64,000 nt of DNA. It comes from Longimicrobiales bacterium. GTDB lineage: Bacteria; Gemmatimonadota; Gemmatimonadetes; Longimicrobiales; Gaopeijiaceae. The position numbers were made by a program, and so were the translations under genes. Below, in pieces: positions 33,885 through 56,850 of the stretch (within the stretch, counting starts at the first letter, position 1; the number at the start of each line of letters is the position of its first letter). The notes below the pieces were generated by a model, which worked only from the letters and a program-made list of their open reading frames with translations, was not told the DNA's origin and did no database searches. The stretch covers positions 192,001-256,000 of the forward strand of contig CBDCKN010000013.1 of assembly GCA_965218295.1 (NCBI GenBank), read 5' to 3'.

Positions 33885-34113
33885 TCTGCCTCCGAAATCA
33901 CCTTCTGGTGTCCCGCTCATCACGGCCAAGGTTGTGAAGAGAGGACGGATCAGTAGGCCTACAGAATTCATTGCAATTGAGAACTATGGCTCTTGGATGC
34001 AACGTGGCATTCCCCGACCGGGTGATGTCTTAATTACGACTGAAGCACCATTGGGAGAAGTTGCACAGCTCTACCACCAGCGCGTTGCTCCGGCACAACG
34101 ACTTATCCTATTG
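33885..34113 (+). pseudogene. hsdS: Type I restriction-modification specificity subunit fragment
   Basis: GVPLITAKVVK..PRPGDVLITTEAPLGEVAQ..AQRLILL; ends at the IS256 IR. Confidence 0.8.
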
Positions 34114-34274
34114 GAGTTAGGATCAAAGGCATCATAGGGGCATGGCGACCGCTACCGGTACCGATCAGCAGCTAAGCAGCCCGAAGACGAAGAGGCGTTC
34201 TCCTCCGGGAACGGGTGCGCGTTCATCATTGTTCGCGCAAGGAAGCAACCCACCTATCCAAGAGGAGGATGCCG

Positions 34275-35330
34275 ATGGAGAGATATATCGGACTCGACGC
34301 ACACGCGTCGAGCTGCACGCTGGGGATCGTAGGACCCAGCGGAAAACGTTTGGGCTCGCAGGTGGTGGAAACGAACGCGCGGGCGCTGATCGAGGTGCTG
34401 CGAGGGATTCCGAGGAACCAGCACTTGTGCCTGGAAGAAGGGACGCTGTCGGGGTGGCTGTACGAGGTGCTGGAGCCGCACGTGGAGGAGCTAACGGTGG
34501 CGGGGGTCGGCAAGAGCCGGGGCCCGAAGACCGACAAGCTGGACGCGTTTGCCCTGGCGGAGAAGCTTCGGATCAGATCACTGGAGACGAGGGTCTACAA
34601 GAACCGGGGCCAGTTCAGGCGGCTGGGGGAACGGGCGAAGAGCTACGACTTCCTGGTCGGCGACACGGTGCGGGTGAAGAACCGGCTCAAGAGCGTGCTG
34701 CGCTCGAGAGGAGTGGCCTACGGCGCGGGGCGCTCGGTCTACTTGAAGCGCGACCGGGAGGAGTGGTTGGCCAAGCTGCCGGAAGCGAGCAGGGCGACGG
34801 CCGGGTTGCTGTACGAGGAGCACGACGCACTCGTGGCATTGAGGGCGAAGGCCGAGAAGGCGTTGCTGGCGGAAGCACGCAAGCATCGAGAGTGGCATGT
34901 GCTGAAGACGTGCCCGGGTCTGGGTCCGATCCGGACGGCGGAGCTCCTGCCGGTGGTGGTGACGCCGTACCGGTTCCAGAGCCGGAGCAGATTCTGGGCG
35001 TACTGCGGACTGGGCGTGGTGATGCGGAGCTCGTCGGACTGGGTGCGGGGTCCGGGTGGGCGGTGGGTAAGGGAAGCGGTACAGCAGACGCGGGGGCTGA
35101 ATCGGAACTTCAACCACACGCTGAAGCGTGTGTTCAAGGGCGCGGCGACGACGGTGATCGGTCGGGCCGAAAACGAACCCTTGTACCGCCACTACGAGCG
35201 ACTCCTGGAGGGGGGCACGAAGCCGAATCTGGCGAAGCTGACGATCGCGCGTCAGCTCGCCTTGATCGTGCTAGCGGTGTGGCGCACGGGCGAAGCGTAC
35301 GACCCCAAGAGACTGGAAGCGACGGAGTAA
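34275..35330 (+). CDS. IS110 family DEDD recombinase
   Basis: YIGLDAH, CLEEG, KTDKLDA, CPGLG, AYCGLGVVMRSSS; GAGGAGG RBS. Confidence 0.92.
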   Translation: MERYIGLDAHASSCTLGIVGPSGKRLGSQVVETNARALIEVLRGIPRNQHLCLEEGTLSGWLYEVLEPHVEELTVAGVGKSRGPKTDKLDAFALAEKLRIRSLETRVYKNRGQFRRLGERAKSYDFLVGDTVRVKNRLKSVLRSRGVAYGAGRSVYLKRDREEWLAKLPEASRATAGLLYEEHDALVALRAKAEKALLAEARKHREWHVLKTCPGLGPIRTAELLPVVVTPYRFQSRSRFWAYCGLGVVMRSSSDWVRGPGGRWVREAVQQTRGLNRNFNHTLKRVFKGAATTVIGRAENEPLYRHYERLLEGGTKPNLAKLTIARQLALIVLAVWRTGEAYDPKRLEATE

Positions 35331-35404
35331 ACCGGGCCGGGATCGGCGAGCGTGGGGTCGAAAGCGGTCACAACATGGGGTCCGACGAAACGGAAGCGAA
35401 CCGG

Positions 35405-35550
35405 TTACAGGGGACAGCATCCATACACACCGTGGGCCGGGGCAGAGAGCCCAAGCCCCCACTCAAAGGCTATGCACCCCTGGAGAGCCGAACGAAGCGA
35501 TGGGCCACAGAGTCCCAGATAGAAGGATGGTTCCCGCTCCAGAGCGGAGA
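35405..35550 (+). ncRNA. Putative seek/bridge RNA
   Basis: TACACACC (35424-35431) and TCAAAGG (35463-35469) match the target; ATAGAAGG (35519-35526) matches the donor junction; internal stems present. Boundaries approximate. Confidence 0.78.
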
Positions 35551-35846
35551 ACGCGACGGCTGTGAACGTCTTCCGGACTGCGATGCGGACCCTGCGAGCG
35601 CACCCCTCCCCACCCTGAGTCGTCGACCGGGCAATCCAAACCATGCGGACGCCGACGGTCAAAAAATGAGCCGACGGCGCGTGGGGAAGGTGCGTCTTGA
35701 CCGCCAGCCCCATAGAAGGGTGTGTAAAAAGAGCGGCGACGTACCTTTGCGCTGAGATTTAAACCAGCGAGCCCGGGTGACAGCCCAATCGGTATCCTCG
35801 GCCGCCCAATCCCGGAACGACGACCGGAAGCCGTGCGGCACGGCCG

Positions 35847-37047
35847 ATGTGGGAGACGCTCGAGGGGATGGTTAGGGAGAAGGCGCAGGAGTGCATCCAA
35901 CAGATCATGGAGGAGGAAGTCACGGAGTTATTAGGCCGGGAGAAGTCAGAGCGCAGGAGTACGGTGGACTCGGTCGAGGGCTACGGCAACGGATATGGCA
36001 AGCCGAGGCGGTTGGCGATGAGCTCGGGCACGATCACACTCCGACGCCCTCGGGTTCGGGGCGTCGAGGAGCGGTTCGAGAGTCGGGTGCTGCCGTTGTT
36101 CGCGAGGCGGACGCAGGAGCTGGGCGCTCTGCTTCCGGAGCTGTATCTGCATGGGCTGGCAGAGGGAGACTTCGAGCTGGCGATGCGGGGACTGCTAGGC
36201 GAGGGGGCACCGCTGTCGAAGTCTTCGATTCGGAGACTGCGGGCGGGATGGACGGCGGAGTTCGAGGAATGGAGCCAGCGTCGCCTGGAGGGCCGTGAGG
36301 TCGTCTACGTATGGGCGGACGGGATCTACGTGAAGGCAGGGCTCGAGCGGGACAAGGCGCTGCTGCTGGTGGTGCTGGGCGCGATGCGAGACGGGACGAA
36401 GGAGGTGTTGGCCCTGAGATCGGGCTACCGAGAGTCGGTCGAGTCCTGGTCCGAGGTGTTGCGGGATGTGAAGGCACGCGGCATCGAGGCGCTCCGGCTT
36501 CTGATGGCGGACGGTAACGCGGCGATCTGGGGCGCAGTACGGCAGATATGGCCTGAGGCGGGCGAGCAACGGTGCTGGAACCACAAGATGAGGAACGTGC
36601 TGGACCGGCTGCCTCAGCGGGAGCAGAGCGAGGCGAAGGATCTTCTCAGGGACCGTGGTCTACGCACCGAGCCGGGCCGAGGCTGTGAAGGCCCGCGAAG
36701 TGTTCGCCAGGCGCTACAGGCCGTGGTATCCGAAGGCGGTGGACGTACTCGAGGACGACTGGGAGCGGATGGTGGCGTTCTACGACTTCCCCGAGGATCA
36801 CTGGAAGCATCTACGCACGACGAACGTGGTCGAGAGCCCGTTCGCTGCGCTACGGCTCAGGACGACGGCGGCGAAGCGATTCAAGCGGGTCGAGAGCGCT
36901 ACGGCGCTGATCCGGAAGTTGCTCTTGGTGGCCGAGAAGCGGTTCCGAAGGCTCGACGCTCCTCACCTCCTCAAGGACGTGTTTGAAGGAAGGAAGTTCG
37001 AAGACGGAAAGCCCGTCTCAACCCAACAGCGGAAAAACGCCGCCTGA
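35847..37047 (+). pseudogene. IS256 transposase, 5'-damaged, +1 frameshift near 36652
   Basis: ORFs 35847-36986 and 36655-37047 together match 52638-53882. Confidence 0.9.
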
Positions 37048-37076
37048 TACGTTTACACACCTATTGACCCAACCTC

Positions 37077-52608: not shown

Positions 52609-53986
52609 GAGGTTGGGTCAATAGGTGTGTAAACGTATTAGGCGGCGTTCTTCCGCTGTTGGTGTGAGACGGGCTTTCCGTCTTCGAACTTTCTTCCTTC
52701 AAATACGTCCTTGAGGAGGTGAGGAGCGTCGAGCCTTCGGAACCGCTTCTCAGCCACCAAGAGCAACTTCCAGATTAGCGCCGTAGCGCTCTCGACCCGC
52801 TTGAACCGCTTCGCTGCTGTCGTCCTGAGCCGTACCGCGGCGAACGGGCTCTCGACCACGTTCGTCGTGCGTAGATGCTTCCAGTGGTCCTCGGGGAAGT
52901 CGTAGAACGCTACCATCCGCTCCCAGTCGTCCTCGAGTACGTCCACTGCTTTCGGATACCACGGCCTATAGCGTCGGGCGAACACCTCGCGGGCCTTCAG
53001 GGCCTCGGCCCGGCTCGGTGCGTAGACCACGGCCCGGAGAAGATCCTTCGCCTCGCCCTGCTCCCGCTGAGGTAGTCGGTCCAGCACGTTCCTCATCTTG
53101 TGGTTCCAGCACCGTTGCTCACCCGCCTCAGGCCATACCTGCCGTACTGCGCCCCAGATCGCAGCGTTACCGTCCGCCATCAGAAGCCGGGGCGCCTCGA
53201 TGCCGCGTGCCTTCAGGTCCCGCAACACCTCGGACCAGGACTCGACCGACTCTCGGTAGCCCGCTCTCAGGGCCAACACCTCTTTCGTCCCGTCTCGCAT
53301 GGCACCCAGCACCACCAGCAGCGCCGCTTTGTCCCGCTCCAGCCCTGCCTTCACATAGATCCCGTCCGCCCACACGTAGACGACCTCACGACCCTCCAGG
53401 CGACGCTGGCTCCATTCCTCGAACTCCGCCGTCCATCCCGCCCGCAGCCGCCGAATCGAAGACTTCGACAGCGGTGCCCCCTCGCCCAGCAGGCCCCGCA
53501 TCGCCAACTCGAAGTCTCCCTCCGCCAGTCCGTGCAGATACAGCTCCGGAAGCAGAGCGCCCAGCTCCTTCGTCCGCCTCGCGAACAACGGCAGCACGCG
53601 GCTCTCGAACCGCTCCTCAAGGCCTCGAACTCGAGGGCGTCGGAGTGTGATCGTGCCCGAGCTCATCGCCAGCCGCCTCGGCTTGCCGTATCCGTTGCGG
53701 TAGCCCTCGGTCGCGTCCACCACCCTCCTGCGCTCTGACTTCTCTCGCCCTAGCAACTCCGTGACTTCCTCCTCCAAGATCTGTTGAATGAACTCCTGCG
53801 CCTTCTCCCGAACCACTTCTTCCAGAACTTCCCACACGGGCGTCCTGGACTCACCCTCGGGTCCCACCGTATTCTTCCTCACGAGGCGTCGTTCCTTTCC
53901 CCCGGGCTGTCACCCGGAGTTCGCTGGTTATTACTCAGCGGAAAGGTACGTCGCCTCTCTTTTTACACACCCTTTGATCCTAGCTC
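52609..53986 (-). mobile_element. IS256 family element, complete, 8-bp TSD GTGACCGA
   Basis: IRs GAGGTTGGGTCAATAGGTGTGTAA and GAGCTAGGATCAAAGGGTGTGTAA; TSD at 52601-52608 and 53987-53994. Confidence 0.94.
52638..53882 (-). CDS. IS256 transposase
   Basis: YRNGY, WADG, MADG, QRCWNHK, RTTNVVES. Confidence 0.94.
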   Translation of the reverse strand: MRKNTVGPEGESRTPVWEVLEEVVREKAQEFIQQILEEEVTELLGREKSERRRVVDATEGYRNGYGKPRRLAMSSGTITLRRPRVRGLEERFESRVLPLFARRTKELGALLPELYLHGLAEGDFELAMRGLLGEGAPLSKSSIRRLRAGWTAEFEEWSQRRLEGREVVYVWADGIYVKAGLERDKAALLVVLGAMRDGTKEVLALRAGYRESVESWSEVLRDLKARGIEAPRLLMADGNAAIWGAVRQVWPEAGEQRCWNHKMRNVLDRLPQREQGEAKDLLRAVVYAPSRAEALKAREVFARRYRPWYPKAVDVLEDDWERMVAFYDFPEDHWKHLRTTNVVESPFAAVRLRTTAAKRFKRVESATALIWKLLLVAEKRFRRLDAPHLLKDVFEGRKFEDGKPVSHQQRKNAA

Positions 53987-54199: not shown

Positions 54200-55041
54200 C
54201 GCCGCGCCCCAGATCGCCGCGTTGCCGTAGGCGACCAGGAGCCGGGGAGCCCCGATGCCCCTGGCCCTCAGGTCCCGCAACACCCCAGACCACGACTCCA
54301 CGGACTCTCGGTAGCCTGACACGAGCACCAGCACCTCCTTGCTCCCGTCCCGCATCGCCCCGATCACGACCAGCACGGCCGCTTTGTCCCGCTCGAGTCC
54401 CGCCCTTCACGTAGATCCCGTCCGCCCACATGTACACGACCTCGCGGTCCTCAAGCGGCCTCCTCGACCACTCTCCGAACTCCTCCGTCCAGCCCCTCTT
54501 CAGACGCCGAATCGAGGACTTCGACACCGGAGCCCCCTCGCCCAGCAGGCCCCTCATCGCAAGCTCGAAGTCCCCTTCCGCCAGACCGTGCAGGTACAGC
54601 TCCGGGAGCAGCGTGCCCACCTCTTTGGTCCTCCGCAAGAACAGCGGCAGCACCCGGCTCTCGAACCGCTCCTCGAGTCCCCGAACCCTCGGACGCCTCA
54701 CCGTGATCGTCCCCGAGCTCATCGCCATCCGCCGCGGCTTGCCGTATCCGTTGCGATAGCCATCCGGCGCATCCACAGCCCGCTTCCGCTCCGACTTCTC
54801 ACGGCCCAGAAGCTCTGTAACCTCCTCCTCCAAGATGCTCTGTATCAACGCCTGGGCCCGCTCCCGCACCCAAGCCTCGAGCACCTCCCATGTCGGCCCG
54901 GTGGACTCACTCCCCACTCCCGCCATATCATCTTTCATGAGGCGACGTTCCTTTCCCCGGGCTCCATCCCGGGATCCGCTGGTTACTGGTCAGCCGAAAG
55001 GTACGTCGCCTCTCTTTTTACACACCCTTTGATCCTAGCTC
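54200..55041 (-). mobile_element. IS256 partial diverged copy (IRL plus 5' part of the transposase, frameshifted)
   Basis: IRL identical to 53961-53986; ORFs 54027-54938 and 54065-54376. Confidence 0.88.
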
Positions 55042-55788: not shown

Positions 55789-56850
55789 CTATGCGACATA
55801 GTCGCTCCATACCTGCATGACTTCGCACCGGCGCGCCAGCAGGTCCGATCTCATGTACGCGCCCTCGGTGCCGCGCACGACGTGAGCCAACACGGCTTCC
55901 GCCGTCTCGCGGTCCACGCCGGTTTCGGCCATCCAACTGCGAATCGACGTTCGGAAACCGTGCAGCGTCGTCCCGGTGACACCGGCCAGCTGGAGCACCC
56001 GGAAAGTGGATTTCGAGGACAGCGCGCGGCCGGCCCGCGTCGGGAAGACGAACGGCGAATCGCCGGCAAGCTCGCTGGCGCGCAGCAGCACGTCGAGCGC
56101 GCCGCTGGACAGCGGCACGCGATGCTCCCGACCGGCTTTCATTCTCGCCGGCGGGATCGTCCAAACCTTCGCCGCCGTGTCGATTTCGTCCCACGTCGCG
56201 GCGCGCGCTTCGCCGGAGCGCGCCGCCGTCAAGACGATCAGCTCGACGGCGAGCCGCGCGGATGCCGGGGCGTTGGCCGACCGAATCCGCCGGAGCGCGT
56301 CTGGAACCTCACCGTGCGGGAGCGCGCGATGGTGCGTCGTGCCGTTGCCGTTGACCTTCGGGAGCGCGGCCACTGCGCAGTCCACGGGATTCGTCGAGAT
56401 GTAGCCTTGTCCGACGCACCAGCGAAATGCCGCGCGGAGCCGGTTCCGGGCTTTCCGCGCGGCGGCTGGCTTCACGTTCCATACCGGCCGGAGACACGCC
56501 AGCACGTCGCCCGACGTGATCCGGTCCACCGGCTTGTCCCGGATCGGCGTGGCGTACAGCCTGAACGTCGAGTGCCATTCCCTGGGGAGCGGCGAGCCGG
56601 CTTTCCACGATTCGGCGTGTAGCCGGATCGTCTCTTCGGCGGCTTCGCGAAATCTCGGGACGCCGCCGCCGCGCGGGTCCACACCCTGGCCGATGGCCCG
56701 CGCGTTCTCAATGGCCTTGTGCCGGGCTTCCGCCAACGAGACTTCGGGAAACCGGCCGAGCCCGGTCGTCGTCAGCCGCCCCGCGACGCGCAACCGTTGC
56801 CTCCATGTGCGCGAGAGCCGGCCGCTCTTCATCCTGTGAACGCGCAAGCT
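55789..56850 (-). pseudogene. P4-like tyrosine integrase lacking its first about 30 codons
   Basis: LRVHRMKSGR, TAARSGE, HGFRTSIRSW, LAH, AYMRSD. Confidence 0.88.

What the first reader, a model, noticed from the sequence alone, without database searches (positions are those of the whole stretch)
34114..35745. IS110-family element whose guide RNA targets the terminal inverted repeat of a resident IS256
Seen: removing 34130-35719 restores GAGTTAGGATCA-AAGG-GTGTGTAAAAAGAG, the IS256 left IR present intact at 53961-53986 and 55016-55041. The 3' non-coding end has TACACACC (complement of the right flank)-[GTGGG..CCCAC stem]-TCAAAGG (left flank plus core), then a second loop with ATAGAAGG (donor junction). 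The circle junction builds TTGACC-17 bp-CATCAT. Known: IS4321/IS5075 target Tn21-family IRs. Inference: an RNA-guided hyperparasite of an IS256 that gains multicopy safe sites and probably immobilises its host IS. Both empty IRLs match the guides; the IRR (TCAATAGG) does not.
Basis: partly seen in the sequence, partly recalled or inferred. Interest (0 to 1): 0.88.

Follow-up and report, generated by a model that had tools for sequence, protein, structure and literature searches.

The report
RNA-guided jumping gene parasitising IS256 ends
A small jumping gene sits at one exact base inside the left end-repeat of another jumping gene (IS256), carries a predicted guide RNA that spells this site, and in one related genome has filled 23 of 27 such ends, likely disabling its host element; the mechanism is known, while the target and the signs of escape appear new.

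Summary
Confirmed, with corrections. Window 34129-35716, between two AG cores, is an IS1111-group (IS110 family) element: a DEDD recombinase (34275-35330) plus a 3' two-loop RNA whose guides match both target flanks and the donor end. The core is AG, not AAGG. Across relatives the guides change with the flanks (0 of 5000 shuffles as good) and the stems show compensatory changes. In seven genomes, 45 of 49 copies carrying this guide have their left junction at the same base of the IS256 left repeat; none is in a right repeat. An empty/filled allele pair shows clean insertion. This genome has 1 invaded and 47 free left repeats. One relative has 23 invaded and 4 free, all four target-mutated; another keeps 11 free, all core-changed. 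Most relatives instead target IS91 oriIS-like ends, and the IS256 guide occurs in two separate clades. Group II introns hit the same repeat. RNA, circles and immobilisation were not shown. The precedent is IS4321/IS5075 in Tn21 repeats. The scan noted this habit before on other DNA. New member of a known kind.

The parts
34114..34128 (+). Outer 15 bp of the host IS256 left inverted repeat, ending in the left AG core (34127-34128)
   Evidence: Matches the 45 perfect free left repeats of the genome except T for C at position 4
34129..35716 (+). IS1111-group element interior (1588 bp; 1590 bp with one AG core)
   Evidence: Ends fixed by empty alleles and by relatives with other flanks
34130..34135 (+). 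Predicted -10 hexamer (CATCAT) of the promoter formed at the circle junction
   Evidence: Junction geometry kept in 55 of 59 elements; activity untested
34134..34147 (+). Left subterminal inverted repeat (imperfect), 7 bp from the end counting the core
   Evidence: Sequence; pairs with 35702-35713 with two single-base bulges
34275..35330 (+). IS110-family DEDD recombinase, 351 aa (D8, E54, D87, D90; candidate serine S252/S253)
   Evidence: PF01548 + PF02371 above cut-off; D8, E54, D87, D90 invariant in 44 relatives; profile and fold hit IS621
35409..35481 (+). Predicted target-binding stem-loop of the bridge/seek RNA
   Evidence: Consensus fold of 51 relatives, 97% of cells paired, compensatory changes
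35424..35431 (+). Guide A (TACACACC): complement of the 8 bases right of the core
   Evidence: Covaries with the right flank: 6.49 of 8 vs 3.65 shuffled, n=49
35463..35468 (+). Guide B (TCAAAG): left flank plus core
   Evidence: Covaries with the left flank: 4.68 of 7 vs 2.91 shuffled, n=53
35487..35531 (+). Predicted donor-binding stem-loop; donor guide ATAGAAG at 35519-35525
   Evidence: Fold; guide covaries with the element's own right end, 6.87 of 7 vs 5.99 shuffled, n=47
35697..35702 (+). Predicted -35 hexamer (TTGACC) of the junction promoter
   Evidence: activity untested
35702..35718 (+). Right subterminal inverted repeat (35702-35713), 3-bp extension and right AG core (35717-35718)
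   Evidence: Sequence; 7/3-bp geometry as described for IS1111 in PMC11187229
35719..37076 (+). Rest of the host IS256: inner left repeat, transposase frameshifted near 36650, intact right repeat (37051-37076)
53961..53986 (-). Free IS256 left repeat, perfect target, on an intact IS256 copy
55016..55041 (-). Free IS256 left repeat, perfect target, on a degraded IS256 copy

Best explanation
This is an IS1111-group insertion sequence whose 3' non-coding RNA likely guides its DEDD recombinase to insert the element after base 15 of the left inverted repeat of a resident IS256, which likely stops that IS256 copy from moving. Shown from sequence: the element, its exact junctions, the guide words, their covariation with flanks and donor end, and the near-exclusive use of this site. 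Inferred from IS621/ISEc11: the element leaves as a circle, the joined ends build a -35/-10 promoter that drives recombinase and RNA, one loop pairs with both strands of the target, the other with the joined ends, and strand exchange at the AG core leaves a core at each end with no other duplication. Inferred from the ISCth4 structure: the insertion splits the subterminal transposase-binding site (bp 14-25) and separates it from the tip. Where the element multiplies it uses up perfect targets; the remaining free repeats are mostly target-mutated, and a few off-target insertions appear.
For: 45 of 49 copies with this guide have the left junction at the same base and orientation of an IS256 left repeat: G000 1/1, G185 5/6, G004 5/6, G338 23/24, G337 5/5, G143 4/5, G184 2/2. 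None of the 49 is in a right repeat, and 45 of 45 right-repeat hits in G000 are free. The four exceptions match part of the guide. Empty allele in G003 vs filled allele in G004: 135 of 135 left-flank bases identical and the same repeat variant on the right. Guide-flank covariation: 0 of 5000 (left) and 0 of 3000 (right) shuffles as high. Relatives with an AA core carry AA in the guide (L088, L096, L099). RNA stems are supported by compensatory changes and beat all slid controls. A 68%-identical relative with the same guides sits at the same base of an IS256 only 76% identical in DNA (L063). In G338, among 13 composites of one IS256 type, 55 of 78 IS256 pairs but 1 of 78 IS1111 pairs are identical, as expected for separate invasions after IS256 spread.
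Against: No RNA or circle was seen. Four runs held as contigs showed no end-to-end joint, and the one RNA run covered only part of the gene at depth about 2. L062 carries the IS256-type guide but has a GGAT-AG left flank. All five invaded G185 sites have A at +1, a mismatch to guide A in the main register. Three G143 sites differ from their guide at position -4. Copies are not all independent: G338 L302 shares the window's left flank (312 of 313 bases). The shuffles ignore relatedness. Immobilisation was not tested, and recombination among IS1111 copies could also explain their diversity. This genome keeps 45 perfect free targets beside an intact element.
Confidence: 0.9

Rival explanations
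1. The IS1111 entered an IS256 end once or a few times and the composite then spread as one unit by IS256 transposition, so the many copies are not separate guided insertions and the host is not immobilised.
For: In G185 all five invaded copies share an A at +1 found in no free AG-core repeat, keep an intact IS256 reading frame, and have target duplications (2 perfect, 2 at 7 of 8, 1 none). The outer 15-16 bp of the repeat remain in place.
Against: The empty/filled pair at one locus. Invaded IS256 bodies belong to several sub-types in G004 and are interleaved with free ones in G185. G338 has clonal IS256 but diverse IS1111. Off-target copies lack any IS256. Duplications are expected if IS256 landed first.
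Confidence: 0.07
2. Site choice comes mainly from the recombinase or from DNA structure, and the RNA matches are incidental.
For: Guide B matches only 4-5 bases plus the core, and several sites carry guide mismatches.
Against: Recombinases about 80% identical use different sites, and their loop words change with the site. Two clades with 68% identical proteins share guide and site. RNA guidance was shown experimentally for IS1111 elements (PMC11187229, passages read).
Confidence: 0.03

Closest known systems
IS4321 / IS5075 (IS1111 group; target Tn21-family terminal inverted repeats; Partridge and Hall 2003, not held, seen only as a cited title and in a passage of PMC3589745)
   Same: IS1111-type element inserted at a fixed position inside the terminal repeat of another transposable element
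   Different: Here the target is an IS256 (Mutator-type, copy-out/paste-in) left repeat; saturation and target-mutated survivors are visible across genomes; sequence identity to these elements was not measured
ISEc11, ISKpn4, ISPst6, ISPa11 seekRNA elements (Siddiquee et al. 2024, PMC11187229; first ninth of the text and passages read)
   Same: 3' non-coding RNA, top-strand match before bottom-strand match, subterminal repeats with 7/3-bp extensions, junction promoter, natural reprogramming among relatives
   Different: Their targets are a linear site, attC sites or REP; the subterminal repeats here are imperfect, with two bulges
IS621 and ISCro4 bridge recombinases (PMC11208160 and PMC11208158, passages read; PDB 8wt6, 9t56)
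   Same: Same fold (TM about 0.65), DEDD residues, two-loop RNA, two-base core (AG is CT on the other strand; the AA variant mirrors the tolerated TT)
   Different: About 19% identity; the RNA lies 3' of the gene; the first donor guide is only a partial match

Membership tests
IS110 family | [quoted passage not shown] | tested here: met
   Both above Pfam cut-off; D8, E54, D87, D90 invariant; best folds are IS621/ISCro4. NCBIfam NF033542 scores 110.7 bits, below its cut-off of 140, so a divergent member.
IS110 family | Conserved catalytic serine in the C-terminal domain | tested here: inconclusive
   S252 and S253 are 97-99% conserved in 78 relatives, in a low-confidence loop; which serine is catalytic was not resolved
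IS110 family | Insertion without target duplication beyond a short core | tested here: met
   Empty/filled pair G003/G004 and intact repeats
IS110 family | Structured RNA with target-matching and donor-matching loops | tested here: met
   Fold with compensatory changes; guide covariation. Met by sequence only; no Rfam match.
IS110 family | RNA is expressed, binds the recombinase and is required for movement | not testable with these tools
   RNA run held as contigs, low cover
IS110 family | Circular intermediate with junction promoter | tested here: inconclusive
   Promoter geometry kept in 55 of 59 elements; no joint in four contig sets, which cannot show absence
IS1111 group | Long non-coding region downstream of the gene | tested here: met
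   386 bp downstream vs 146 bp upstream
IS1111 group | Subterminal inverted repeats of 11-13 bp with 7-bp and 3-bp extensions | tested here: met
   34134-34147 and 35702-35713, imperfect with two bulges; 7/3 geometry holds
IS1111 group | Top-strand match precedes bottom-strand match in the RNA | tested here: met
   Guide A (complement of the top strand) at 35424 precedes guide B at 35463
IS256 family (host) | Mutator-type DDE transposase, terminal repeats, target duplication of about 8 bp | tested here: met
   NF033543 above cut-off; repeats and 7-9-bp duplications on many free copies

The most novel reading that the evidence does not exclude
A clade of IS1111 elements specialises in the ends of other mobile elements and has re-aimed its guide at least twice from the oriIS end of IS91-type rolling-circle elements to the IS256 left repeat, and once more to the right repeat. 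In this bacterial family it acts as an RNA-guided brake on IS256 expansion: it fills every susceptible copy, and IS256 escapes through core mutations that then spread (nine AT-core copies in G185). Group II introns compete for the same 10 bp.
Probability: 0.4. Interest if true: 0.72.

Novelty: new member of a known kind. Interest (0 to 1): 0.5.

Why it matters
It gives a readable natural series of one RNA-guided element and its target at different stages: 1 of 48 ends filled here, 23 of 27 in a relative, and only core-changed ends free in another. That makes it directly testable whether one insertion sequence can cap another's copy number and whether the host escapes by changing its own repeat. 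The clade also offers dozens of naturally reprogrammed guide-target pairs on one RNA scaffold, with a recombinase about 19% identical to IS621, useful for learning guide register and mismatch rules of IS1111-type recombinases.

Tried and rejected
AAGG core: rejected. Chance match of the guide words: rejected; a first shuffle used words off by one base and was redone. The right-flank test failed through a parsing error and was redone. Circle junction and RNA in public runs: not seen in four contig sets, uninformative; this question stays open. A promoter scan of the linear element found no site, as expected for a junction promoter. No Rfam match for the RNA. Single-sequence PDB search found nothing; the profile did. 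Plasmid records hold only distant relatives (37 records, all under 60% identity, the 12 listed 23-28%). A PF04986 search of the own genome found nothing but its control also failed; tblastn finds only fragments. A right-junction pattern over 401 phylum genomes matched only in the own family: G000, G184, G185 and one hit not followed up. Of 21 family genomes with the guide-A motif, only 8 are this element in the loci inspected; the other inspected hits lie in unrelated sequence. G143 guide change as a compensatory counter-move: not complementary to the changed target base, rejected. Runs with a small share of words were not used for habitat.

Full report
Observation. The window shows an IS256 left inverted repeat split by a 1590-bp element. 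Removing it restores a repeat that matches the free copies at 53961-53986 and 55016-55041 except T for C at position 4 and one base further inside. The genome (G000, 3.57 Mb) has 47 free left repeats, 45 with a perfect target, and one invaded one. All 45 right-repeat hits are free. The 14-base target occurs 46 times, never outside IS256 ends. A 255-bp remnant of the element's 3' end on C12 also abuts a degenerate left repeat. The guide words lie at 35424, 35463 and 35519; both target words occurred together in 2 of 10000 shuffles.

The element. The gene (34275-35330, 351 aa) has PF01548 and PF02371. D8, E54, D87 and D90 are invariant in 44 relatives. A profile hits IS621 and ISCro4, and the model (pLDDT 85) folds like IS621 (TM about 0.65, 19% identity). 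The long non-coding end is downstream, imperfect subterminal repeats sit 7 and 3 bp from the ends, and the top-strand match precedes the bottom-strand match. These are the IS1111 features listed in PMC11187229 (first ninth of the text and passages read). The core is AG: relatives differ immediately outside it on either side, and relatives with AA at their junctions carry AA in the guide. AG is the CT core of IS621 read on the other strand (PMC11208158, passages).

The RNA. I collected 127 loci (47 from genomes, 80 of 191 from metagenomes) and parsed the 110 at 45% identity or more, plus the window. An alignment of 51 non-redundant sequences folds into two stem-loops with internal loops; 97% of cells pair, 10 of 25 pairs show two-sided changes, and slid controls pair 33-53%. 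Guide B matches the left flank at 4.68 of 7 bases against 2.91 in shuffles (n=53). Guide A matches the right flank at 6.49 of 8 against 3.65 (n=49 distinct guides, best of three registers, two mis-parsed rows left out). The donor guide matches the element's own right end at 6.87 of 7 against 5.99 (n=47). No shuffle reached the observed value, but the shuffles ignore relatedness. The first donor guide is only a partial match. The -35/17 bp/-10 geometry across the predicted junction holds in 55 of 59 elements. Neither RNA nor circle was observed.

Close copies were found through 61 relatives and a guide-motif scan of 314 family genomes. Of 49 copies with this guide in seven genomes, 45 have their left junction at the same base and orientation of an IS256 left repeat: G000 1 of 1, G185 (the same genome as G001) 5 of 6, G004 5 of 6, G338 23 of 24, G337 5 of 5, G143 4 of 5, G184 2 of 2. 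Three exceptions have non-IS256 DNA on both sides and one on the left only; each matches part of the guide, as reported for half-match insertion of IS621 (preprint 10.64898/2026.08.31.748434, abstract read). G003 holds the empty allele of a filled G004 site (135 of 135 left-flank bases). Against strict specificity: L062 has the IS256-type guide at another kind of left flank, G185 sites mismatch guide A at +1, and three G143 sites mismatch at -4. Some copies are shared insertions: G338 L302 has the window's own left flank. A sister at 94% identity with altered guides has a right repeat as its left flank; its right flank is unrelated DNA (L003).

Saturation and survivors. G338 has no perfect free target; the four free left repeats found each carry a different change next to or in the core. 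Two of these look like footprints of the element's right end (inference). G185 has 11 free repeats, nine with an AT core and two with TA, and none with AG; most AT copies have intact frames and clean duplications. Across the six genomes with two or more copies, 7 of 28 free repeats found are perfect, against 52 of 55 in G000 and G003. Censuses outside G000 rest on exact patterns and transposase hits and may miss variants. Depletion alone explains mutated survivors. Spread of the AT variant as an escape lineage is an inference from one genome.

Immobilisation. In the IS256-family element ISCth4 the transposase binds bp 1-12 and bp 14-25 of the donor repeat (PMC7780238, passages). The insertion falls after bp 15 and should destroy the donor end; the recipient end is bound loosely, so some activity may remain. 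In G338, 13 composites of one IS256 type (13 of 16 complete ones) have 55 of 78 identical IS256 pairs but 1 of 78 identical IS1111 pairs, so IS256 did not visibly carry the passenger. G185 is ambiguous. Missing target duplications, including in the window, match other copies' flanks and point to recombination between IS256 copies. The window's host is frameshifted in any case.

The wider clade. Of 53 other loci with both flanks, 28 have a GGNT-AG-G site that resembles the reverse strand of the 22-bp ISCR1 oriIS quoted in PMC13023784 (passages). In five loci an IS91-type Y2 transposase frame points at the site and ends 166-243 bp from it; four have an integrase beside it (81 of 109 flanking frames scanned). 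On a tree of 82 recombinases the IS256-type guide falls in two separate clades, each nested among oriIS-type members (FastTree support 1.0). Four frameshifted rows distort the root and no clade test was run, so convergence and guide transfer are not separated. G000 itself holds left-end remnants at GGAT-AG sites. Group II introns lie in the same left repeat 6 bases (G004, G185) and 4 bases (G338) right of the core.

Comparison and novelty. The mechanism is that of bridge/seek RNA elements (PMC11208160, passages), and targeting a transposon's terminal repeat is known for IS4321/IS5075 (passage in PMC3589745; the primary paper was not held). Full-text searches found no paper with IS110, IS256 and bridge RNA together, three listings for IS1111 with IS256 (not opened), one for oriIS, IS91 and IS1111 (passages unrelated), and none for group II introns in IS256 repeats. 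Subscription journals, ISfinder and supplements were not seen, so absence from print is not established. Earlier notes of this scan report the same habit in other genomes; I read them after the analyses above.

Verdict. Real and well supported: confidence 0.9 for RNA-guided targeting of the IS256 left repeat, about 0.7 for immobilisation, about 0.4 for the escape dynamic. New member of a known kind with a new target class. Interest 0.5.

Noticed in passing
L229 (G004:C4:340000-342600) and L231 (G001:C1:2161500-2164200): A group II intron of about 890 nt without a long reading frame sits in the IS256 left repeat, 6 bases right of the AG core; a candidate exon-binding word complementary to the repeat is present.
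   Followed up: partly
L341 (G338:C4:1167800-1173700): A 1900-bp group II intron with a 508-codon open frame sits 4 bases right of the core in a left repeat already invaded by the IS1111 element.
   Followed up: partly
L054, L069, L078, L089, L019 and others: Most relatives at 50-85% identity insert at a site resembling the oriIS end of IS91/ISCR elements, with a Y2 transposase frame pointing at the site.
   Followed up: partly
L305 (G184:C11:426500-432000) and L299 (G338:C5): Tandem duplications of the element's 3' part, in which the right end is joined to a site inside the recombinase gene (458-bp repeats in G184).
   Followed up: no
G000:C3:85551, C3:154175, C14:59194, C9:211138, C9:124957: Short end remnants of oriIS-type relatives of the element, at a repeated GGAT-AG sequence family in this genome.
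   Followed up: partly
G000:C3:279268-280305 (minus strand): A second IS1111-type element, 41% identical in protein, with its own 3' non-coding region; genome G013 has 15 copies of a similarly distant element.
   Followed up: no
window 33960-34113: The left flank is a 51-codon open fragment that by recall resembles a type I restriction specificity subunit; Pfam gave no hit. The same flank precedes an invaded IS256 in G338, another genus.
   Followed up: partly
G000 whole genome: Recent IS256 burst: about 30 full-length copies with nearly identical transposase, and swapped flanks that point to recombination between copies.
   Followed up: partly
L333 (G337:C6) and L316 (G338:C5): The same left flank (113 of 113 bases) carries a free repeat with an AA core in one genome and an invaded repeat in the other.
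   Followed up: no
window 55789-56847 (minus strand): Tyrosine integrase with an arm-binding domain next to the two free IS256 ends.
   Followed up: no
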